A DNA stretch of 64,000 nucleotides from Dictyostelium discoideum. Its lineage: Eukaryota. A program made the translations under genes and the position numbers. Shown piece after piece: positions 30,171-47,468 of the stretch (its first letter is position 1; each line of letters starts with the position of its first letter). The notes beneath the pieces were generated by a model, which was not told the origin of the DNA, did not search any database, and saw nothing but the letters and a program-made list of their open reading frames with translations. Where the stretch lies: assembly GCA_000004695.1 (NCBI GenBank), contig CM000154.2, positions 1,696,001 to 1,760,000 of the forward strand. Direction: 5' to 3'.

Positions 30171-30309
30171 AATAAAACAAAAAAAAAAAAGCAATAAAAT
30201 TTAAAAAATTATTAATATTAATTTTATATAGTATTTTTAAAAATATTCAATTATTTAATCCACTTATTTTTGAAAAATTTATTTTGGGAAAGTTTTGAAT
30301 TAATTAGAT

Positions 30310-30381
<72 letters not shown>

Positions 30382-30760
30382 TAATTTTTTTTTTTTTTTA
30401 ATATGTATTAAAATTCTTTGAAAATTGCCAAGATAATTATGACCAAACTGCACTATAGACCTTTTTTGTTTTTTTAGAATAAGGTTTAAAAAAAAATTAA
30501 AAAAAAATAATAAAAAATAAAAAAAAAAAAAAATAAAAAATGAGATTTTTTTTTTTTTTTTTTTTTTGGGGAATGTTGACAAAATAATTACTTAATTCAA
30601 CACCTATGAAATATGTGTTCCTTAAAAAGTTTAACGAAACCATAACGATCTCATAAGCTAATTCTCTTTTTGTTCAAAAAGAAGGGAAAGTTTGATATCA
30701 TTTCTTTGTTTTTTTTTTTTTTTTGCTATGAATTAACAAAGATTCGGTTGTAGCCAATAC

Positions 30761-30798
<38 letters not shown>

Positions 30799-30933
30799 CG
30801 TCTAAAACAAATATGTATAAATAGAATTAATATTTTTTTTTATTTTCATTATCAAATACAAAAGCAAAAACAAAAATAAAAATAAATATAATTTTCATAT
30901 TATAAATAAAAAAAATAAAATAAAAAATAAAAA

Positions 30934-31065
30934 ATGGAACCAATTTTAAATTCAAATGAAGGTAAACAAGTTTGGTATATTACAGGTAAGTGTTAAATCT
31001 TTTTATTTTAATCATAATTTTTTTTTTTTTTTTATTTTCTTTTTTACTTATTGATTCCAAATCTT

Positions 31066-31103
<38 letters not shown>

Positions 31104-32028
31104 GTATTGATTAAATAAATCAAAGGTTGTACAAGTGGAACTGGTTTATCTTTAGCCAAAAAATTGTTATCATTAGGACATAGTGTTGCTGGTACTACAA
31201 GAGATATTAATAAATTAAAACAATTGAGTATTTTTAATGATAAATCATTTTTGGGATTACAAGTTGATATTGTTTCCAGTAAATCAGTTAGAGAATCAAT
31301 TGAAAAAACTATTGAGCATTTTGGTGAATTAACCCATGTAATCAATAATGCAGGATATGGAATTGTAGGCTCCGTTGAAGAAGTATCAGAAGAAGAAGAC
31401 AAGAAATTAATGGATGCCCTTTACTTTGGTAGGTTTCAAAAAAAAAAATCCATTGTCAAAAAAAAAAAAAAAAAAAAAAAAAAGTATTAATTTTTTAATT
31501 TTTTATATTAATATATATATAGGTCCTTTAAATGTTATTCGTTCAGTTTTACCTTATTTCAGATCAAGAAACAATGGTTACATTTTTAATGTAAGTTCAA
31601 TTGCTGGTATTAAAGGCTATCCAAGATTTGGTAATTATAGTGGTGCTAAATTCGCATTGGTTGGTTTAACTGAATCATTAGCACAAGATGTTTTACCATT
31701 TAATATTAAAGTTTCATGTATTGTACTTGGTTATATTGCTACCGGTTTCCAAAGTGCAAATGATTATTGTAAAAATTTAATTCCAGAATATCAAAGTCGT
31801 CAAATATTTGGTTCAATAATGAAACATATTGAAGAAACTGTAACTGCTGGTGACCCTGATAAAGTTGCTGATGTTATCATTGAAAACTCTACCAAATCTG
31901 AATTACCATATAATCTTTTCGTTGGTCCACTAAGTACTTTTGAAATGGCTGAATCTAAAGTCAATGAAATTACTCAACAAATTCAATCTCAAAGAGAAAG
32001 AAATTCAAATATTTTAATTGAAAAATAA
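30934..32028 (+). CDS. Short-chain dehydrogenase/reductase (SDR) family oxidoreductase, 3 exons, 286 aa
   Basis: Exon 1, 30934..30985 (MEPILNSNEGKQVWYITG, donor GTAAGT). Exon 2, 31126..31428. Exon 3, 31523..32028. The Rossmann motif ITGCTSGTGLSLA (TGxxxGxG), NNAG and the catalytic YSGAK (YxxxK) are all present. The phases are consistent (861 nt). Confidence 0.85.
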
Positions 32029-32285
32029 ACTATTATTATTATCCATTATAAACTTTTTTTTTTTTTATTTTTATTTTTTTATATTCGGAATTTGATTAAT
32101 TAATTAAATGGTTGGAAATTATTATTGTAATATTAAGAAGAGATTTTAAAAAATATTAAAAATAAAAAATAATATATATTTTTTTTAAAAAAGGTTTTTA
32201 TTTATTTATTTATATAAAAATAGTTTTTTTTTTTTTTGTTATTTTTTTTTTTATTTTTTTTTTTGTTGTTTTTTTTTTTTTTTGT

Positions 32286-34370
32286 TTAGATAATATATTT
32301 TGATAAATCAGTTTTGAATAATAATTCACTTAAATGTTTTCTAATGTCGGGAGTATCTAAAACAACTGTTTTACCTTTATGAATATCACAATTAAAACTT
32401 ATATCCTCTACGATACGTTCAATGATACCATGTAATCTTCTAGCGCCAAGATTTTGAACTTGAGCATTTGCTTCAAAAGCGATTTTTGCAACTTCTAACA
32501 ATGCATCATCAGTGAATTCCAATTGAATATCTTCAGTTTTAAGTAATGCTTTTTGTTGTTGAATTTGATTATTCTTTGGTTCAGTTAAGATCTTATAGAA
32601 ATCCTTTTGTTCCAATGGTTTAAGTTCAACACGAATTGGTAAACGACCTTGTAATTCACTAATGAGATCTGATGGTTTAGTATTATGGAAAGCACCTGAA
32701 GCAATGAATAAGATTCTACTGGTATCTATTTGACCATACTTTGTGCTAACCATACAACCTTCAACGATTGGAAGAAGATCTCTTTGAACGCCATCGGTTG
32801 AAGCGTCACCACCATTCTTTATACTTTCACGAGATGTACAAATCTTATCGATTTCATCCAAAAATACAATACCATTTTGTTCGGCCGATTGAATTGCCAA
32901 TTTGGTTACATCTTGAGAGACAGTGTAGAGGTCTCTATATTGTTTTTCAAAGATTTCTTTTGCCTCTGCAATGGTTACTTTTTTAATTTTTGATGGTTGT
33001 TTATCGATAGCAGAGAGTAGTTTAGCGATATTTTCATCATAAGCTTGACCCAAGGATCCCTTTGAATCGGATGATACTTCAATTTCAATCTCTACGGAAT
33101 CCAATTGACCTTCTCTATATTTCTTTAATAATTCTTCGATTGTGATTGCACTTAGATCATTTTGTAAACCAATTAAAGAGGAGATAACATTCTTTTCAAC
33201 ATCGGCTTCAATCGATGCTTTATGTGAGTTTGCAATCTTGGTTTTAATATTACTAATACTTGCTTCGATGAGATCACGAATGATTGTATCAACGTCTGGA
33301 CCATGAAAACCAACCTCTGTATATTTGGTTGCTTCAACCTTTACAAAGGGCGCATTGATAATCTTTGCTAAACGACGTGCCAACTCTGTCTTACCAACAC
33401 CAGTTGGACCAATCATTAAGATATTCTTTGGATAAACATCTGGTTTCATTGATGCATCTAAACGCTTTCTTCTCCAACGATTACGTAACGCAATTGAAAT
33501 GGCTCTCTTTGCATCGGATTGACCAATTACATATTCATCCAAACCACTAACTATATCTCTTGGTAATAAATTATCTTCTCCAATCATATCCTCTGTGAAA
33601 TTATACTTTGGTGCTACATGTTGTTGATGCTGCTGTTGTTGTTTGGCGTGATCTTTATTAAGTTTATTAAAATGTGATACCAAATGATTAATCGCTTTAT
33701 CCATGCTACCTCCGTTTTTTGTATCTGATAATTTCAAAAGTTTGTTAAATAAAATTGGATCCTCTTTAAAAATCTTTTCTAAATTTTCTTCAAGAATAGA
33801 GAGATTATATTTACCTTTACTTTGCATTGGTATTATAACCAAACCATTTTTAATATCACTTAAATCTGAAAAATCAAATTTATTTGTAACTTTTGATAAT
33901 AATGGTGATGTTGTTGTTGTTTTAGTTGTCGCTGTTTCAGTTTCAATTGGTTTTGATTCGAGTGGTGGTGTTGTTGTTGTTTTAGTTGTTGCTGTTTCTG
34001 TTTCAATTGGTTTTGATTCGAGTGGTGATGTTGTTTCTTTTGATTGCGATGGTTTTTGTTTATTTTTTGAACCCTTTGGTCTACCTCTTTTAGGTTTTTC
34101 TGTTGTTATATCTATTTCATTTGTACCTTCTGAAGCCTTTGTTGCTACAGTTTCTTTTTCTAAATCTTTTTCAATTTTCTTATAAATATGATCTAATTTT
34201 AAAGGATTTGAATCATCATTTTCAATATCATCTTTATCTTTACCATTTGTAATTGAACAATATCCTCTATTAAATTTTAAAATTGATAATTGTGGTTGTT
34301 GTGTTTGTTGGGATAATCTAAAAGTTAAAGATGATTTTGCTAATTTAAATAGATTTTTTGAATGAATCAT
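32286..34370 (-). CDS. HslU (ClpY) AAA+ ATPase homolog, bacterial-type, predicted mitochondrial, with a ~250-aa N-terminal extension containing an AT-hook and a tandem repeat
   Basis: A 694-aa single-exon ORF. The Walker A motif is IGPTGVGKTELARRLAKIINAPFVKVEATKYTEVGF. Further HslU blocks are VQRDLLPIVEGCMVSTKYGQIDTSRILFIASGAFH, SDLISELQGRLPIRVEL and NLGARRLHGIIERIVEDISF. The N-terminus MIHSKNLFKLAKSSLTFRLS is presequence-like. The segment KPKRGRPKGSKNKQKP is an AT-hook. A 20-aa repeat, PLESKPIETETATTKTTTT, occurs twice and is encoded by a 60-bp tandem repeat at about 33880-34030. Confidence 0.9.
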   Translation of the reverse strand: MIHSKNLFKLAKSSLTFRLSQQTQQPQLSILKFNRGYCSITNGKDKDDIENDDSNPLKLDHIYKKIEKDLEKETVATKASEGTNEIDITTEKPKRGRPKGSKNKQKPSQSKETTSPLESKPIETETATTKTTTTPPLESKPIETETATTKTTTTSPLLSKVTNKFDFSDLSDIKNGLVIIPMQSKGKYNLSILEENLEKIFKEDPILFNKLLKLSDTKNGGSMDKAINHLVSHFNKLNKDHAKQQQQHQQHVAPKYNFTEDMIGEDNLLPRDIVSGLDEYVIGQSDAKRAISIALRNRWRRKRLDASMKPDVYPKNILMIGPTGVGKTELARRLAKIINAPFVKVEATKYTEVGFHGPDVDTIIRDLIEASISNIKTKIANSHKASIEADVEKNVISSLIGLQNDLSAITIEELLKKYREGQLDSVEIEIEVSSDSKGSLGQAYDENIAKLLSAIDKQPSKIKKVTIAEAKEIFEKQYRDLYTVSQDVTKLAIQSAEQNGIVFLDEIDKICTSRESIKNGGDASTDGVQRDLLPIVEGCMVSTKYGQIDTSRILFIASGAFHNTKPSDLISELQGRLPIRVELKPLEQKDFYKILTEPKNNQIQQQKALLKTEDIQLEFTDDALLEVAKIAFEANAQVQNLGARRLHGIIERIVEDISFNCDIHKGKTVVLDTPDIRKHLSELLFKTDLSKYII

Positions 34371-34560
34371 TTTTATCTATCTATATATATCCTCCCTTTA
34401 CCCAATAATAATATATATAAATATTTATATGAATAATTAAAAGTTTTTTTTTTAAAAAAAAAAAAAATAAAATAAAATAAAATAAAAAAAAAAAAATAAA
34501 AAAAAATAAAATATATTATTGAAAAAAAAAAAAAAAAAAAAAAAAAATTAAAAAAAAAAT

Positions 34561-34591
<31 letters not shown>

Positions 34592-34910
34592 AAAAAAAAT
34601 TAATTAAAATTAAATAAAATGGAAAAAAATCGTTTTTTATTTTATTCTTTTTCCCTTTATTATGCATTTTGGAACAACTTAAATTTATTTTTTTAAAAAA
34701 AAAAAAATAATAAAAATAAAAATGAATTTCGGTTAAATTTTAGTAAACACGTTTCGTTTAAAATATTAATTGTGAATATCGATTTATGTGGGCCATTCTT
34801 TTTTTTTTTTTAATTTTCATTTTCATTTTCATTTTTTTCATTTTTTTTTTTTTTTATTTTTTTTATTTTTTTTTATTTTTTTTTTAATCTAAACAAAATA
34901 AATAATAAAA

Positions 34911-35374
34911 ATGAATTTTTATAAATTATTATCAAACAATTGTGTTAGATCATTAACGAAATCAATTAATAATAAACCAATAATAAATCCAAAATTTATT
35001 ACAAGCAATACTTTTATTAAAAGATCATATTTTACAAAATCACCAAATAATTTATATTCAAATAACTATGATAATTATGAAACTATAAATAAACAACAAC
35101 AACATCAACATCAACATCAACAACTTGAATTTCCAGAACAAAGAAATAATAATAGTAATAATAAAAAAGAAGAAATTACAGCAGAATCATTTGAATCAAA
35201 ACCATTAATTGTTGAATTAGATAGTAAAAACTTTAGTGAAGTTATAAAATCAAAAGTACCAATAATTTTAAATGTATATGTTAATCATGGTACAGTGTCA
35301 CCTGCATTAACTGAAGCATTAAAAGCATATGCTCAAGAATATCCTGGTTGTTTTTTATTAGCAAATGTAAGTGT

Positions 35375-35406
<32 letters not shown>

Positions 35407-36232
35407 TATATAATATATATGTATTATATAAAATAATTTCTAATTTCTTTTTATAATATGATAGTTAGATGTTGATAAGAATTTAGAAATAGCAAACGCA
35501 TTGAAAGTTGAACAATTACCAACTTTATTTACATTAAATAAAGGTCAAGTGCTTCAACAATTTGTTGGATTGCCAGATCATGAAACATTGGATAAATTGG
35601 TTAATGGATTATTGAAATTATCAGGTGGATTAATTGGTAATAAATCAATTGAACAATTACAAACCATTGCTGAATTATTCATAAAATCAAATGAAATCGA
35701 AAAGGCTATTGAAATCTATGAGAATCTATTATCAAATGATACAACTCAATTACTTAGAACTCTACTAGGCTTCATTCAATGTTACACAAATTTGAATGAA
35801 CCTGATCAAGTTGAAAAATATTTATCAATTATTAAAGAGAAATTCCCAAATGAATTAGATCATAAAATTATTCAATCATCTAAAAGAATTTTACAATTAA
35901 AGAAACAAGTCTCTCAAACTGTTGATAGTCTATATAAAACTCATAATCTTACTTTAGAACAAATCGAAGATAAATTAAATAATGATCCAACAAATTTAGA
36001 TTTAAAATATGATTTATCCTTATTATATTATCAAATTGGTGAATATGAAAAATCAATTAATCAATTATTAGAGATTTTAAAAATTAATAAAAAATTTACA
36101 CCAAAAAATGATGATCAATCAAATACAGATTCTGCTAAAAATTTAATTGTTAAAATATTTGAATCTTTAGATTCACAAGATCCATTAGTTATAAAATCAA
36201 GAAAACAATTAAATAATATTTGGTTCTCTTAA
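34911..36232 (+). CDS. Thioredoxin-fold domain plus C-terminal TPR-like helical domain protein (YbbN/CnoX-like chaperedoxin architecture), 2 exons, 407 aa, with a presequence-like N-terminus
   Basis: Exon 1, 34911..35366 (donor GTAAGT). The intron carries (AT)n/(TA)n. Exon 2, 35465..36232. The thioredoxin-like segment is ...FSEVIKSKVPIILNVYVNHGTVSPALTEALKAYAQEYPGCFLLANVDVDKNLEIANALKVEQLPTLFTLNKGQVLQQFVG. The CxxC active site is replaced by HGTVS, with no redox cysteines. The C-terminal half has repeated helical hairpins (IEQLQTIAELFIKSNEIEKAIEIYENLL…YYQIGEYEKSINQLLEILKI). Confidence 0.7.
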
Positions 36233-36417
36233 TTCGAAAAAATAATAATAAAAAAAAAAAAACAAAAAAAAAATAGAATTTGAAATTAAATTTTCAAAAA
36301 TTTAATTTATATAAAATTAATTTGGTTAAATTATTATTTTTTATTTTAAATTTATGTTTGAAAAAAAAAAAAAAAAAAAAATAATAAAAAAAAAAAAAAA
36401 GATTATAACTTTTAAAT

Positions 36418-40665: not shown

Positions 40666-43403
40666 TTAATATTTTTTTTTTAATTGGGTAATCATAACTT
40701 TCCTTTTCTTATTTAAATTATTATTTCCCCAAAATGTTTCTTCTTCTGTTGTTGTTGTTGTTGGTGTTGATGATGTTGATGTTGTATTTGTTGGTTTGGT
40801 TTTTAAAAAGTCATTGCTATTATTCTTCTTTTCATTTACACTTGTACTACCAAAATTAAAACTAAATTTAGTTGGTTGAGATGATTTTGCCATTGTTGTT
40901 GATGATTTATTTAATTTTGAATTCTTTTCTTCTTTTTCTTTTTTATCATTTTCTTTTACAATTGAAAATATATTAAAACTACTTTCTTCTTTTTCATCAT
41001 TATTATTATTATTATTACTATTATTATTACTATTACTATTATTAATATTAGGTTTATTTTCATTTGTTGGTTTTATAAATAATGATCTCCATGATTGGGC
41101 AACTTTAATATCATTCTTTAAAACTTTTTTAACATTTGGATTTTGAATTTGTTTTTTTTTATTTGATTTTGATTTTGATTTTGATTTTTCTGATTCTGAC
41201 TCTTTCTCTGATTCTGATTCTGATTCTGACTCTGATTCTGATTCTGACTCTGACTCTTTCTCTGATTCTGATTCTGATTCTTTCTCTGATTGAGATTCTG
41301 ATTCTGATTCTGACTCTGATGAATTAGTAACATCTTTATTTGATTCCTTTTCACTTTCATCTTTACTTTCACTTTCACTTTCACTTTGGTTTGATTTTCC
41401 TTCAATATCCATTGAATCTTCTTTATCGTTTTCACTTGATTTATCTTCCTCGTCTTCTTTTTCACTTTGGCTGCTGCTTTGATTGTCATCACCATTTTTG
41501 GTATCTGGTGTGTCTTCATTTTCAATCTCACTTTGACTTTCACTTTCGCTATCACTTTCACTTTCACTTTCACTTTCATTTGATTTGTTATCAATAACCA
41601 TTGAATCATCTTTTTCATTCTCATTTTCACTTTCACTNNNNNNNNNNNNNNNNNNNNNNNNNNNNNNNNNNNNNNNNNNNNNNNNNNNNNNNNNNNNNNN
41701 NNNNNNNNNNNNNNNNNNNNNNNNNNNNNNNNNNNNNATAATTATTTGATGATTTATTTTCACCATCACTATCACTTTCGAATAAAACCATATCCTCACC
41801 TGAATGTGATGTGGCAGTGAATGAAGCTGCAACTTTTGATTGTTCCATTCTTCTCTTTCTAAAGGCCTCTTGTCTCTTTCTTTCACCATCTAGAGCAGAT
41901 TGTTTTTTAATATCATAATCAATAACTTTTTCTTCATATTGACCACTTTCATTTTCTGAATAACTTTTTTTATTATTTTTTAATTCATTTTTATAATAAT
42001 TTTCATCATATTCTTCTTCTCCTTCACCATAACCATATCCATCTTCACCATAATAATTTTCATCATATCCCTCTTCACCATAACCACCATTATTATTATT
42101 ATTATTATTATTATTATAATTATTATTATTATTATTTTCACTATTGTAACTATTTTTATGTTTATTATATTCATTATTATAATCATTATTAATATTTCTA
42201 TTGTTATTGTTATTATTAAATTGAGAACCATCATAATAATCACTCTCATAAAATGCACCATAACCTTTATTAAAATCATTTGATTTATTTTCATTATTTG
42301 GTACAATACTATTTTCTTCATTATTATTTTCATCATTAAATGATACAGCACCTCTATAACTATCATCATTATTATTATTATTATTATTATTATAATTATT
42401 ATAATTATTATTATAATTATTATTATAATTATCCCTACTACTATTATTATAATTATCTCTATTATTTCTATTATTTCTATTATCATTTTCAATTAAACCA
42501 TCTAAAAATTGATACTCTTTTGAAAATTGTGAATGTTTTGGTTTATTATTTTCAAAACTATTTTCTCTAGCCCATTCTGGATGTTGTTTTCTATATTCTA
42601 AATATCTTTCATACATAGCATGCATTGATTTCTTTTCTAATCTTAATCTCTTTCTAAATTTTACATTTTCTTCATCTCTTCTCTTTTCAATTTCTTTTTC
42701 TTCTTGTAATCTTTCTTCTTCTTTTTTCTTTAAAATTTCTTCTTCTTCTTCTTTTTCTTTTTTTTTAATATCATTTAATTTCTCTAAATAATTTGGTTTT
42801 GCTTTTTGAATTTTTAATACTGATCCTTTCCATTTAGTTTTATTTAAAACACTTAATGCTAAAAAAAAAATAATAAAAAAATAAAAAAATAAAAAATATT
42901 AATATATATATATATATATATTTTAATAATTTACAATATTATTATTATTTACCTTTATTTAAAGAATCAATGGTTGGGAAATAAACATTTAAATAAGCGA
43001 AACCTTTATATTGATTTGAAGATATATCATTAATAAATTCTAATTTTTCTAATTTTGTATCTTTAATCATTGAAGAGAATAAATTATCAATTTCAGAGAA
43101 TTGAATAGTTGGGTTTAAACCACCAACATATAATCTAATGGTNTTTGGATATTTATCAGCTTCAATTTGTCTTAATCTTTCTCTTTCTTCTTGTTTCTCT
43201 TTTTCAATTCTTTGTTTCTCTAATTCTGCATCTTTAACTGCTTGTTCTGCTTTATCATGTTCTTCCATTAACAGTTTCAATTCCTCTTGCTTCTTTCTTT
43301 CCTCCTCTTCAAGTTTACGTTTATCTTCTTCTTCTCTTTCTTTTTGTAAACCTTCATAATAGAAGTTCATCATACCACCAAACCTAAAATCAAAATCTCC
43401 CAT
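40666..43403 (-). CDS. Nucleolar protein 8 (NOL8/Nop8)-like RRM protein; CDS is interrupted by a 100-N assembly gap
   Basis: Exon 1, 42953..43403: an N-terminal K/E coiled coil followed by the RRM RLYVGGLNPTIQFSEIDNLFS...KGFAYLNVYFPTIDSLNKG, with a GTAAAT donor. Exon 2 starts at 42858 (acceptor AG at 42859-42860): ALSVLNKTKWKGSVLKIQKAKPNYLEKL, matching the NOL8 box SVLNKTKWKGGTLQIQLAK. Long N/Y-rich and S/E-rich acidic repeats run to the stop at 40666-40668. N's at 41638-41737 fall inside this exon, so the frame across the gap is unknown. A single N at 43143 gives an X in the RRM. Confidence 0.7.
41638..41737. other. Assembly gap (100 N) inside the NOL8-like coding exon
   Basis: A run of n characters. 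Both flanks encode S/E-rich acidic repeats on the minus strand. Confidence 0.99.
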
Positions 43404-43589: not shown

Positions 43590-43901
43590 AAAAAAAAAAA
43601 AAAATAAAAAATTTGAAAAAAAAAAAGAATGATTACATTTATATTTTATATTTTTTAAATCATTTTGTGTATTTTTGAGTTCTATTTATCTTTAAAATAA
43701 ATAAAATCGTTGCTATAAAAAATAAAATTTAAATTAAAAATAAAATGAAAAAAAGGAAAAAAAAAATGGAAAAAAAAAAAAAAAGGGAAAAAAAAAGGGA
43801 AAAAAAAAAAAAAGTCAACTTTTTACCTTTTTTTTTTATAAGGACCAAGAATTAATTTTATAAATAAAAAAATAAATAAAAATTTTAAAATGGTTATTTT
43901 A

Positions 43902-45216
43902 TTAATAAATATTTTTTTGATAATGTTCAGTACTTTTCTTTTGTTTAACAGAAAGGAATAAATGAACTCTTCTATTGAAAATTTTTTCCAAATCTTTTTT
44001 TGATTCCAAATAGATTGATTTAATTGTTTGACCCATTTTTACCAAGGATAAAGGCTTTATGAGATGATTTTGTTACGATGAAATCATGATCGATTCTGAG
44101 ATCACCATTTTTAAAATTTGTCCAACCAATTGTTGATTGAACCACACTATAGGGTATTTCATATCTAAGTTTTGAATAAAGTTTCTCTTTAATTATTTCC
44201 TCTGCTCTAAAGAAATCACTTTGATTGGTTGATGTTTTATCAGTGAATTCCCATTGTCCAGGTTTTGCCTTGGTAAGTAAAAAGTTTGTAAGATCCTCCA
44301 CTCTAATATTTGAAGTGGCGGAAACTATAAATGTATCGGTAAAAATGTTACCTTCATTTAATTGAGATATCATTTGAACTAGAGTTTCCTTCTTTTTAAC
44401 CAAATCAACTTTATTTACCACCAATATGAATTCCTTCTCATCCAAACTATCATTCACTATTGCGCCCAATTCTTCATTGGAGGCGGTGGCAGCATTCGCT
44501 TTGGCATTGGTTTGTTCCATTCTCATTCTTTTAATTAAATTTAACATTTGTTCTTCCAATTTACCAACGATGAATTCTGTATCTGATGAATTATTATTAG
44601 TGGCATCAACAACCAATAAAACAATGTCAGCCTCTTTAACTACACCCCATGCTAAATTTACAAATTCACGTACATGTGCCATCCTATTGAAATTCTTTAT
44701 TATACCAGGTGTGTCGTGAAATAGAATTTGTGTATCATCTTTTGAGTAAATACCCAATACTGCATCTCTTGTGGTATGTTCGGTTGGTGATACTGCACAT
44801 ATCTTTTCACCAACTATTGAATTGACCAAGGTTGACTTTCCTGCATTGGGTGCTCCAATAATTGCAACATTCAATGTCTTGGCATTTTCATTGTGTATTG
44901 GTGTTTCCAATTGCATTGATTGTTCTGTGATATCTGGTGGTGTAATATTATAACTTCTAACAACACGTTTTCTTTTAATTGGTTGTGCTCTTTCTTCTCT
45001 AATCTTTTTATCTTGTTCCTCTAATATATTAATTTGATGTTGTATTGGATTAACATTTACACCATATCTTTTCATAATTGAATAATCTCTATAGAAACAT
45101 ATGTTTTTAAAATTATTTCCACTATTTATAATTATACCATCGGTTTTTAATATATTCCTTTTATTTAAAAAATTTTCATTTATTACTTTTAAAATTTTAT
45201 TTGAATTTCTTATCAT
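43902..45216 (-). CDS. Era-type GTPase (ERAL1/Era homolog, mitochondrial ribosome-assembly GTPase) with an apparent +1 frame disruption in the KH domain near 44028
   Basis: ORF 44020..45216. It contains GAPNAGKSTLVNSIVGEKICAVSPTEHTTRDAVLGIY (G1 and G2), DTPGI (G3) and NKVDL (G4), followed by a KH-domain start IPYSVVQSTIGWTNFKNGDLRIDHDFIVTKSSHKAFILGKNG. It ends prematurely at SNN* right after an A5 run. Removing one A gives LGKMGQTIKSIYLESKKDLEKIFNRRVHLFLSVKQKK...*, ending at 43902-43904, which reproduces the Era/ERAL1 C-terminal pattern (IGPKG..ISQIA.EAG.DL.DIF...V.IRLSVK). Confidence 0.8.
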
Positions 45217-46736: not shown

Positions 46737-46913
46737 TTTTTTTTAATAAAAAAAAAAAAAAAATTTCCCCCAAACCCCCAAAATTTGGGGGGGGGCCCCC
46801 ATTTTAAAAATTTCCCCCCCCCCCCCCCTTAAAAAAAAAAACCGGCCCAAAAGGGTTTAAAAAAAAGGGGTTAAAAAGGGTCTTATTAAGAATTGGTGAG
46901 GTAAAAAAAAAAG

Positions 46914-47013
46914 NNNNNNNNNNNNNNNNNNNNNNNNNNNNNNNNNNNNNNNNNNNNNNNNNNNNNNNNNNNNNNNNNNNNNNNNNNNNNNNNNNNNNNN
47001 NNNNNNNNNNNNN
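46914..47013. other. Assembly gap (100 N) with low-quality homopolymer stutter on both flanks
   Basis: Flanks such as cccccaaacccccaaaatttgggggggggccccc, tttcccccccccccccc and ggggggggggggaaaagcc are uncharacteristic of this genome and typical of degraded read ends. Confidence 0.95.
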
Positions 47014-47240
47014 GGGGGGGGGGGAAAAGCCTGGGTGAAAAAAGGTGCCTTTATTTAAATCCCTATGATAAAAAATCTTTTTTGTGCCAATTGTGTTTGT
47101 TGATCCAACCCCCTGGGGGAAGTTTAATTTAATTTTAATTTTAATTTTGGTTTTTAATTTTTTTTTTTTTTTAATTTTTTTTTAATTTTAAATTTAATTT
47201 CCTTAATTAAATTAATTTTTTGGTTAAATTAATATCCCCC

Positions 47241-47271
<31 letters not shown>

Positions 47272-47468
47272 TAGATTGTGGGGTGCGTTAAAAAAATTTT
47301 CCTTTTGTTTTTTTTTTTTAATTCTTTCCATAATTTTTTTTTTTTTTTTTTTTTTAATTTTTTAATTTTTTTTAATATTATTATTTATATATTGTTGTTA
47401 TAACATAAAAATAAAAATAAAAATAAAAATAATAATATAATAATAAAATAAATAAATTATAATTGTAA

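What the first reader, a model, noticed from the sequence alone, without database searches (positions are those of the whole stretch)
43902..44040. Era GTPase KH domain truncated by an A-homopolymer frame disruption
The annotated ORF ends ...ILGKNGSNN* right after the run aaaaa (reverse strand) at about 44028. Deleting one A yields LGKMGQTIKSIYLESKKDLEKIFNRRVHLFLSVKQKK*. That reproduces the conserved Era/ERAL1 KH-domain tail and extends the CDS to 43902. This is either a genuine frameshifted allele or pseudogene of an essential mitochondrial ribosome-assembly GTPase, or, more likely, a homopolymer length error.
Basis: seen in the sequence. Interest (0 to 1): 0.5.

Follow-up and report, generated by a model that had tools for sequence, protein, structure and literature searches.

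The report
Extra G truncates reference Era gene
The Dictyostelium discoideum AX4 reference sequence has one surplus G that cuts short the gene for a mitochondrial-type Era GTPase; every other available sequence lacks that G and encodes the full protein, so this is almost certainly a sequencing error and not biology.

Summary
The window is D. discoideum AX4 reference chromosome 5. The 398-aa ORF at 44020..45216(-) is exactly the annotated DDB_G0288609 / XP_636640.1 / Q54IP6. The frame break is real in this sequence.

The lesion is not in the A-run. All 14 independent sequences read CTT GGT AAA AAT GGT CAA. These are three D. discoideum long-read assemblies, nine Logan read-set contigs, D. cf. 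discoideum and D. citrinum. A5 is conserved in all of them, and only the window has GGG (44032-44034) where the others have GG. The true peptide is GKNGQTIK, not GKMGQTIK.

One assembly, GCA_054883475.1, is almost certainly the sister lab strain AX2-214. It is identical to the window across the CDS apart from this G.

The gene lies on a 5.2-kb island between two 100-N gaps. The island also holds a lone N, other bases private to the reference, and stuttered read-end sequence. A 6-kb control region nearby shows no clean differences.

Removing the G lifts KH_2 from 15.6 to 42.0 bits and the NCBIfam Era equivalog from 207.9 to 240.2 bits (cutoff 237).

Verdict: a reference base-call error that has propagated into protein databases. 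It is an ordinary gene and a useful curation fix. A genuine AX4-specific mutation is not strictly excluded, because no AX4 reads could be reached.

The parts
44020..45216 (-). ORF as it stands in the window: 398 aa, ending ...ILGKNGSNN*. This is the annotated AX4 gene model DDB_G0288609 (XP_636640.1, EAL63136.1, UniProt Q54IP6).
   Evidence: ORF. (exact-sequence look-up gives the AX4 accessions; contig length 5,125,352).
43902..45216 (-). Full Era/ERAL1-type CDS (437 aa plus stop) once one G of 44032-44034 is removed. It is identical to KAM9947337.1 (P0001).
44032..44034 (-). GGG run holding the one surplus G. This is the true site of the frame disruption; all other sequences have GG here (Gly395 codon GGT).
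   Evidence: pairwise differences for L001-L010. (site table for L001-L014).
44036..44040 (-). A5 run (Lys393-Asn394, AAA AAT). It is correct as written and conserved, and it is not the lesion.
   Evidence: AAAAAT in all 15 sequences. K-N conserved in the D. discoideum clade.
44020..44022 (-). Premature TAA stop created by the frame slip.
43905..44030 (-). The 42 codons of the KH-domain tail (QTIKSIYLESKKDLEKIFNRRVHLFLSVKQKKSTEHYQKNIY), out of frame in the window.
   Evidence: 17 of 42 positions invariant in 13 dictyostelid orthologues. (aligns to human ERAL1 up to residue 435/437 and E. coli Era up to 280/292).
43902..43904 (-). True stop codon (TAA) of the gene.
   Evidence: gene calls of 437 aa in 10 independent contigs.
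44269..44871 (-). Era-type GTPase (G) domain, residues about 116-316. G1 GAPNAGKS, G3 DTPG and G4 NKVD are visible in the translation.
   Evidence: MMR_HSR1 80 bits; GTP_EFTU 160-316. (TIGR00436).
43941..44160 (-). Type-2 KH domain, residues 353-425 of the repaired protein. The frame slip splits it at residue 395/396.
   Evidence: KH_2 353-425, profile positions 1-73 of 78, 42.0 bits after repair; 353-397, 15.6 bits as in the window.

Best explanation
The window is the Sanger-era D. discoideum AX4 reference. In it a GG dinucleotide in the Gly395 codon of the mitochondrial-type Era GTPase gene (DDB_G0288609) was over-called as GGG. The extra base shifts the frame, a TAA follows four codons later, and the automatic gene model ends at 398 aa. 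It loses the last 42 residues, which are the second half of the RNA-binding KH domain. The organism most probably makes the normal 437-aa protein. By homology with bacterial Era and human ERAL1, that protein would bind the 3' end of small-subunit rRNA through the KH domain and act in mitochondrial small-subunit assembly.

Shown here: the surplus G is unique to this record, and the repaired protein is a full-length Era. Inferred: that it is a base-calling or assembly error and not a mutation private to the AX4 clone, and the mitochondrial function.
For: (1) All 14 independent sequences read GGT AAA AAT GGT CAA. They are GCA_054883475.1, GCA_054859385.1 and GCA_054859355.1 (D. discoideum), GCA_054859205.1 (D. 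cf. discoideum), GCA_054859325.1 (D. citrinum) and nine Logan contigs from two SRA run series. Only the window has GGG.

(2) GCA_054883475.1 is the same lineage as the window. The Era CDS is otherwise identical. The two share a private C at 43893 where all others have T. A 6-kb control region (30300-36380) differs from the window only within or immediately beside homopolymer tracts. A wild isolate, by contrast, has dozens of coding SNPs. The assemblies match Holland et al. 2025 (PMC12745789), whose D. discoideum set is AX2-214, CR116C and OT3A. By N50 (5.3 Mb against a 5.29-Mb contig) and by elimination, this one is AX2-214, which like AX4 derives from NC4.

(3) The local reference quality is poor. 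The gene sits on a 5.2-kb island between 100-N gaps (41638-41737, 46914-47013). There is a lone N at 43143 beside a wrong base (CCA AAN ACC against CCA CAA ACC), and private C's at 43842, 43797 and 43785. Stuttered sequence with G9/G11/C15 runs flanks the second gap.

(4) Repair restores family scores: KH_2 15.6 to 42.0 bits and NF000908 Era equivalog 207.9 to 240.2 bits against a cutoff of 237. The repaired protein aligns to ERAL1 and Era almost to their C-termini.

(5) The tail is under purifying selection across Dictyostelia.

(6) No contig on record encodes the 398-aa product or either short downstream ORF.

(7) AX4 resequencing found 1916 shared substitutions against the reference, attributed to reference errors or ancestor differences (PMC3466296).
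Against: No read set known to come from AX4 itself could be examined. The Logan runs carry private synonymous SNPs (44986 A>T, 33648 C>T), so they are a different strain. The identification of GCA_054883475.1 as AX2-214 is by elimination, not from its BioSample record. GGG against GG is a short run and not a classic long-homopolymer error. The negative look-ups for the truncated product are weak evidence, because even the reference record is not in that index.
Confidence: 0.9

Rival explanations
1. A genuine +G insertion arose in the AX3/AX4 laboratory lineage after it split from NC4. AX4 then really makes a 398-aa Era lacking half its KH domain: a null or hypomorphic allele tolerated in axenic culture.
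For: The reference record does read GGG. No AX4-specific reads were available to contradict it. Lab strains are known to carry private lesions, such as the AX4 chromosome 2 duplication (PMC12745789).
Against: The sister lineage (probably AX2-214) has GG. The rest of the CDS shows no decay. The lesion sits among other demonstrable reference defects on a gap-bounded island, whereas a control region is clean. The measured mutation rate is very low, 2.9e-11 per site per generation (PMC3466296). The tail is strongly conserved. From general knowledge, not tested here, Era/ERAL1 loss is severely deleterious in bacteria and vertebrate cells.
Confidence: 0.07
2. One reading: the A5 homopolymer (44036-44040) is one A too long, and the true protein reads GKMGQTIK.
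For: Deleting one A also restores the frame and a KH_2 match of 39.0 bits.
Against: A5 is present in all 14 independent sequences and the difference maps to the G run. Asn394 is conserved throughout the D. discoideum clade and no orthologue has Met there. The G-deleted repair scores higher (42.0 bits) and is identical to a deposited protein.
Confidence: 0.01
3. The break is bridged biologically, by a programmed +1 ribosomal frameshift, RNA editing, or a tiny intron.
For: None beyond the existence of two overlapping frames.
Against: All relatives are simply in frame at this spot, so no recoding site is conserved. A one-base intron is impossible. The orthologous proteins and ERAL1/Era are collinear through the site.
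Confidence: 0.01

Closest known systems
GTPase Era, mitochondrial (human ERAL1; PDB 8csp chain a, 437 aa)
   Same: An N-terminal extension, then an Era-type G domain, then a C-terminal type-2 KH domain. The repaired protein has the same length (437 aa) and aligns from residue 103 to 425 against ERAL1 102-435 (E = 5.8e-42).
   Different: Only moderate identity. There is an extra low-complexity insert (about residues 225-262, ...MRMEQTNAKANAATASNEELG...) between G-domain segments. Mitochondrial targeting and 12S-type rRNA binding were not tested here.
Bacterial Era (E. coli, PDB 1ega / 1x18; NCBIfam TIGR00436, NF000908)
   Same: G1-G4 motifs and the KH tail (...[35 protein letters not shown] against ...GKNGQTIKSIYLESKKDLEKIFNRRVHLFLSVKQK). 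It passes both equivalog cutoffs after repair. The best bacterial hits are alphaproteobacterial Era at 35-41% identity.
   Different: About 110 extra N-terminal residues and an internal insert. It is a eukaryotic nuclear gene.
Known class of artefact: single-base errors in the 2005 D. discoideum AX4 Sanger reference
   Same: A discrepancy between the reference and every resequenced relative, in a low-coverage, gap-flanked stretch. AX4 resequencing reported 1916 shared substitution discrepancies (PMC3466296). AX2 against AX4 was only 99.5% identical at another locus despite common ancestry (PMC12745789).
   Different: This one falls in a coding region and truncates a conserved domain, so it propagated into RefSeq, UniProt, EukProt and MetaClust.

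Membership tests
Era / ERAL1 GTPase family | Era-type G domain with G1 (GxxxxGKS), G3 (DxxG) and G4 (NKxD) motifs | tested here: met
   MMR_HSR1 80 bits. GAPNAGKS, DTPG and NKVD are read directly in the translation. Unaffected by the frame break.
Era / ERAL1 GTPase family | Complete C-terminal type-2 KH domain, in the sequence exactly as in the window | tested here: not met
   KH_2 15.6 bits against a gathering score of 22; only profile positions 1-46 of 78 are matched.
Era / ERAL1 GTPase family | Complete C-terminal type-2 KH domain, after removing the surplus G (this is the protein of every other assembly) | tested here: met
   KH_2 42.0 bits, profile positions 1-73 of 78. Aligned to the ends of ERAL1 and E. 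coli Era.
Era / ERAL1 GTPase family | Whole-protein score above the curated equivalog cutoffs | tested here: met
   TIGR00436: 140.9 bits truncated and 166.9 repaired, cutoff 116.25. NF000908: 207.9 truncated (fails) and 240.2 repaired (passes), cutoff 237.
Era / ERAL1 GTPase family | Binds the 3' end of small-subunit rRNA and acts in (mitochondrial) small-subunit assembly | not testable with these tools
   Inferred from homology only. The N-terminal extension of about 110 aa relative to bacterial Era is compatible with a presequence, but targeting was not tested.
Genuine frameshift allele / pseudogene | The frameshift is seen in independent sequence from the same lineage | tested here: not met
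   The sister-lineage assembly GCA_054883475.1 (probably AX2-214) has GG. No contig encodes the truncated product or the orphan downstream ORFs. Reads from AX4 itself could not be reached.
Genuine frameshift allele / pseudogene | Further signs of decay (additional disabling changes, relaxed constraint) | tested here: not met
   The surplus G is the only difference from L001 in 1.3 kb of CDS. The tail is conserved across Dictyostelia.
   A5 in all 15 sequences.
Programmed ribosomal frameshift | The two-frame arrangement and slippery site are conserved in relatives | tested here: not met
   All 14 relatives have a single continuous frame.

The most novel reading that the evidence does not exclude
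The AX4 laboratory strain, alone among D. discoideum lineages, really carries the +G and lives with a mitochondrial Era that lacks the last helix and strand of its KH domain. That would mean either that the KH tail is dispensable for mitoribosome small-subunit assembly in this amoeba, or that AX4 has a compensated mitochondrial translation defect of which users of the standard strain are unaware.
Probability: 0.06. Interest if true: 0.45.

Novelty: not a real feature. Interest (0 to 1): 0.07.

Why it matters
Biologically it does not matter: this is an ordinary, conserved Era/ERAL1 orthologue. Practically it is a concrete curation fix. The AX4 gene model DDB_G0288609 (XP_636640.1, Q54IP6) is 39 residues shorter than the true 437-aa protein (42 true C-terminal residues are replaced by three out-of-frame ones) and lacks a detectable KH domain. 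The truncated form has been copied into RefSeq, UniProt, EukProt and MetaClust. As a result the model-organism entry is named only 'Era-type G domain-containing protein', while orthologues are named 'GTPase Era, mitochondrial'. It also marks window 41.6-47.3 kb as a low-quality stretch of the reference, where other calls (the N at 43143 and the gap flanks) should not be trusted. Only if AX4 truly carried the lesion would it matter for the many laboratories that use that strain.

Tried and rejected
(1) A-deletion repair (GKMGQ). It restores the frame, but the DNA of 14 independent sequences contradicts it. My first exact-context regex failed for that very reason.

(2) A search with the 116-aa C-terminal fragment, meant to find partial Logan products ending in GSNN* or continuing as GQTIK. 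The word index gave only 8 candidates and no hit, so it was uninformative. The full-length search listed no D. discoideum fragment clusters either.

(3) Exact look-ups of the 398-aa product and of the two possible orphan downstream ORFs (47 aa from TTG, 44 aa from ATG) found nothing on record. This is weak negative evidence only.

(4) Literature searches for DDB_G0288609 / Q54IP6, for the SRR accessions of the Logan runs, and for reports of AX4 reference frameshift errors gave no hits. The supplementary tables of PMC12745789 are not held, so the assembly-to-strain mapping could not be read directly and was made by elimination.

(5) Intron or programmed frameshift: rejected, because all relatives are collinear and in frame.

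(6) Whether the Logan contigs are RNA or DNA could not be decided. The gene has no intron, and the contig ends coincide with long T/A runs.

Full report
WHAT THE WINDOW IS. The window has 21.8% G+C, two 100-N gaps and one lone N. The 398-aa ORF at 44020..45216 on the minus strand is, residue for residue, the annotated protein DDB_G0288609 of Dictyostelium discoideum AX4 (EAL63136.1, XP_636640.1, UniRef100_Q54IP6), on a record of 5,125,352 bp. The window is therefore a piece of the AX4 reference chromosome, and 'the annotated ORF' in the finding is the public gene model.

CHECK OF THE OBSERVATION. On the minus strand the sequence reads ...CTT GGT AAA AAT GGG TCA AAC AAT TAA, giving ...LGKNGSNN*, with the stop at 44020-44022. 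The +1 frame is open from there to a TAA at 43902-43904 and encodes ...TIKSIYLESKKDLEKIFNRRVHLFLSVKQKKSTEHYQKNIY. With a per-codon stop probability of 0.089 in this composition, 41 open codons have a chance of about 0.02. Homology makes the point stronger. Pfam KH_2 scores 15.6 bits on the ORF as written, below the gathering score of 22 and covering only profile positions 1-46 of 78. It scores 39.0 to 42.0 bits with positions 1-73 after a one-base repair. So the frame break and the hidden KH tail are real. Three details in the finding are off. The A5 run lies at 44036-44040, not about 44028. The quoted repaired peptide stops ten residues early, although the end coordinate 43902 is right. The third is the important one and is treated next.

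WHERE THE EXTRA BASE IS. Two single-base deletions restore the frame: one A of AAAAA (giving GKMGQTIK) or one G of the adjacent GGG (giving GKNGQTIK). The G-deleted version scores higher on KH_2 (42.0 against 39.0 bits). A homologue search returned a 437-aa D. discoideum protein, KAM9947337.1 (P0001), which reads GKNGQTIK. I fetched the DNA that encodes it: one chromosome-scale NCBI assembly (GCA_054883475.1, L001) and nine Logan contigs from runs SRR28564540-43 and SRR26869257/58/66/67/68 (L002-L010). A base-by-base comparison shows the same thing in all ten: the window has one surplus G at 44032-44034 and the A-run is unchanged. Four more assemblies give the same string, CTT GGT AAA AAT GGT CAA. 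They are two further D. discoideum isolates, D. cf. discoideum and D. citrinum. That makes 14 of 14 independent sequences with A5 and GG, against GGG in the window alone. At the protein level, Lys-Asn-Gly-Gln/Lys is conserved throughout the D. discoideum, citrinum, firmibasis and dimigraforme clade, and no orthologue has Met at that position. Its proposed refutation test ('independent reads confirm A5') is formally met without the conclusion following.

ERROR OR ALLELE? This is the real question, and the argument has three parts.

First, lineage. The NCBI assemblies carry consecutive locus-tag prefixes (ACTFIR, ACTFIT, ACTFIV, ACTFIW, ACTFIY, ACTFIZ) and species labels that match Holland et al. 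2025 (PMC12745789, PRJNA1300491). [quoted passage not shown] The isolates kept as D. discoideum are AX2-214 (N50 5.3 Mb), CR116C (4.9 Mb) and OT3A (1.5 Mb). GCA_054883475.1 has a 5.29-Mb contig here and a protein identical to AX4's outside the lesion. The other two D. discoideum assemblies carry about ten amino-acid changes and dozens of coding SNPs. L001 shares with the window a C at 43893 where every other sequence has T. In a 6-kb control region (30300-36380) it differs from the window only within or immediately beside homopolymer tracts. It is therefore the same lineage as the reference and, by elimination, AX2-214. AX2 and AX4 both descend from NC4, so any real difference between them must have arisen in the laboratory. 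This strain assignment is an inference; the supplementary tables were not available.

Second, local quality. The Era gene lies on a 5.2-kb island between the gaps at 41638-41737 and 46914-47013. On that island the reference also has a lone N at 43143 next to a wrong base, inside another ORF: CCA AAN ACC where both L001 and a wild isolate read CCA CAA ACC. It has private C's at 43842, 43797 and 43785 where all others have A. It also has about 600 bases of stuttered sequence around the second gap, for example TTTCCCCCAAACCCCCAAAATTTGGGGGGGGGCCCCCATTTT, with G9, G11 and C15 runs. These runs are otherwise almost absent from the 64-kb window, and the stretch does not align to L001. It looks like unpolished read ends. 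Over-calling GG as GGG is the same kind of fault. In contrast, the control region has no clean discrepancy.

Third, background. Three AX4 mutation-accumulation lines shared 1916 substitution differences from the reference. The authors attributed them to reference errors or ancestor differences, while the measured mutation rate was 2.9e-11 per site per generation (PMC3466296). Holland et al. found AX2 and AX4 only 99.5% identical at another locus despite their common origin. That is the same level I see here: 99.0% on the island and 99.5% in the control region.

Finally, no contig on record encodes the 398-aa product or either orphan downstream ORF that a GGG template would yield. This is only weak evidence. 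I put the error explanation at about 0.9. A genuine AX3/AX4-lineage insertion remains at about 0.07, because I could not reach reads that are certainly from AX4. The Logan runs carry private synonymous SNPs (44986 A>T, 33648 C>T), so they come from another, closely related strain.

WHAT THE GENE IS. After repair the protein passes both NCBIfam Era equivalog models: TIGR00436 at 166.9 bits (cutoff 116.25) and NF000908 at 240.2 bits (cutoff 237). The truncated form fails the stricter model at 207.9 bits. It aligns with human mitochondrial ERAL1 (8csp chain a, also 437 aa) from residue 103 to 425, reaching ERAL1 residue 435 of 437. It aligns with E. coli Era to residue 280 of 292. G1 (GAPNAGKS), G3 (DTPG) and G4 (NKVD) are all present. 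The nearest bacterial relatives are alphaproteobacterial Era proteins at 35-41% identity, and an N-terminal extension of about 110 residues precedes the G domain. Both facts fit a mitochondrial Era. Targeting and rRNA binding are inferred from homology, not tested. The 42 residues lost in the reference model follow directly after the GxxG-type loop (GKNG) of the KH domain. Seventeen of these 42 positions are invariant in 13 dictyostelid orthologues, which share a core reading IK.IYLE.KKDLE..FN.RVHLFL.VK. From established structural knowledge of Era, this segment forms the last helix and strand of the KH fold that holds the 3' end of small-subunit rRNA. A protein ending at GSNN would not be expected to fold there. 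This is inference and was not modelled here.

REJECTED ALTERNATIVES. An intron or a programmed frameshift is excluded, because every relative is in frame and collinear through the site. Pseudogenisation is not supported, because the surplus G is the only change in 1.3 kb of CDS relative to the sister lineage.

VERDICT. The feature is best classed as not real biology. It is a base-call error in the AX4 reference that has propagated as a truncated Era model into RefSeq, UniProt, EukProt and MetaClust. Interest is low. The value lies in a precise curation fix and a warning about window 41.6-47.3 kb. The decisive check is trivial: count the G's at 44032-44034 in AX4 reads or in an AX4 amplicon.

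Noticed in passing
window 46740-47340 (both flanks of the 100-N gap at 46914-47013): About 600 bases of 'stuttered' sequence with G9, G11 and C15 runs and doubled or tripled bases. This is quite unlike the rest of the 22% G+C window, which has only three other G/C runs of 6 or more. It does not align sensibly with the sister-lineage assembly L001 and looks like low-quality Sanger read ends left in the reference.
   Followed up: partly
window 43143-43145, inside ORF 42945..43403 (-): There is a lone N and an adjacent discrepant base in a coding region. The window reads CCA AAN ACC (P-X-T), while L001 and the wild isolate L011 both read CCA CAA ACC/ACT (P-Q-T). The protein (…TIRLYVGGLNPT…KGFAYLNVYF…) looks RRM-like; I did not test that.
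   Followed up: partly
window 41638-41737 (100-N gap): The gap falls inside Asn-rich coding sequence (ORFs 40666..41889 and 41633..42625, minus strand, translate with a run of X). L001 has 393 bp and L011 has 435 bp in its place, so the reference gene model here is incomplete.
   Followed up: no
window 43842, 43797, 43785 (3' flank of the Era gene): There is a C in the window where other assemblies have A: 43842 in all that cover it, 43785 in L001, L011 and the Logan contigs that reach it, and 43797 in L001 and the Logan contigs that reach it. These are probably further reference miscalls on the same island.
   Followed up: partly
L002-L010 and L016-L021 (Logan contigs; runs SRR26869256-68 and SRR28564540-43), at window 44986, 43893 and 33648: These read sets come from a strain very close to NC4/AX4 but not identical to it. 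They have private synonymous SNPs at 44986 A>T (Era) and 33648 C>T (a 694-aa AAA+/ClpB_D2-small protein), and the ancestral T at 43893. The strain and the library type (RNA or DNA) could not be established.
   Followed up: partly
window 30300-36380 compared with L015: In this control region the reference and the probable AX2-214 assembly differ only by homopolymer lengths (T/A runs, up to 25 bases) and by three substitutions lying within or beside those runs. Which of the two is right at those runs is unknown. They account for the 99.5% identity figure, with no clean SNPs.
   Followed up: no
Era protein residues about 225-262 (window about 44430-44545, minus strand): A low-complexity insert (…MRMEQTNAKANAATASNEELGAIVND…) splits the G domain relative to bacterial Era and ERAL1. 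It varies in length among Dictyostelium species: 437, 433, 421 and (N-terminally shorter models) 383 aa. It is probably a tolerated surface loop.
   Followed up: no
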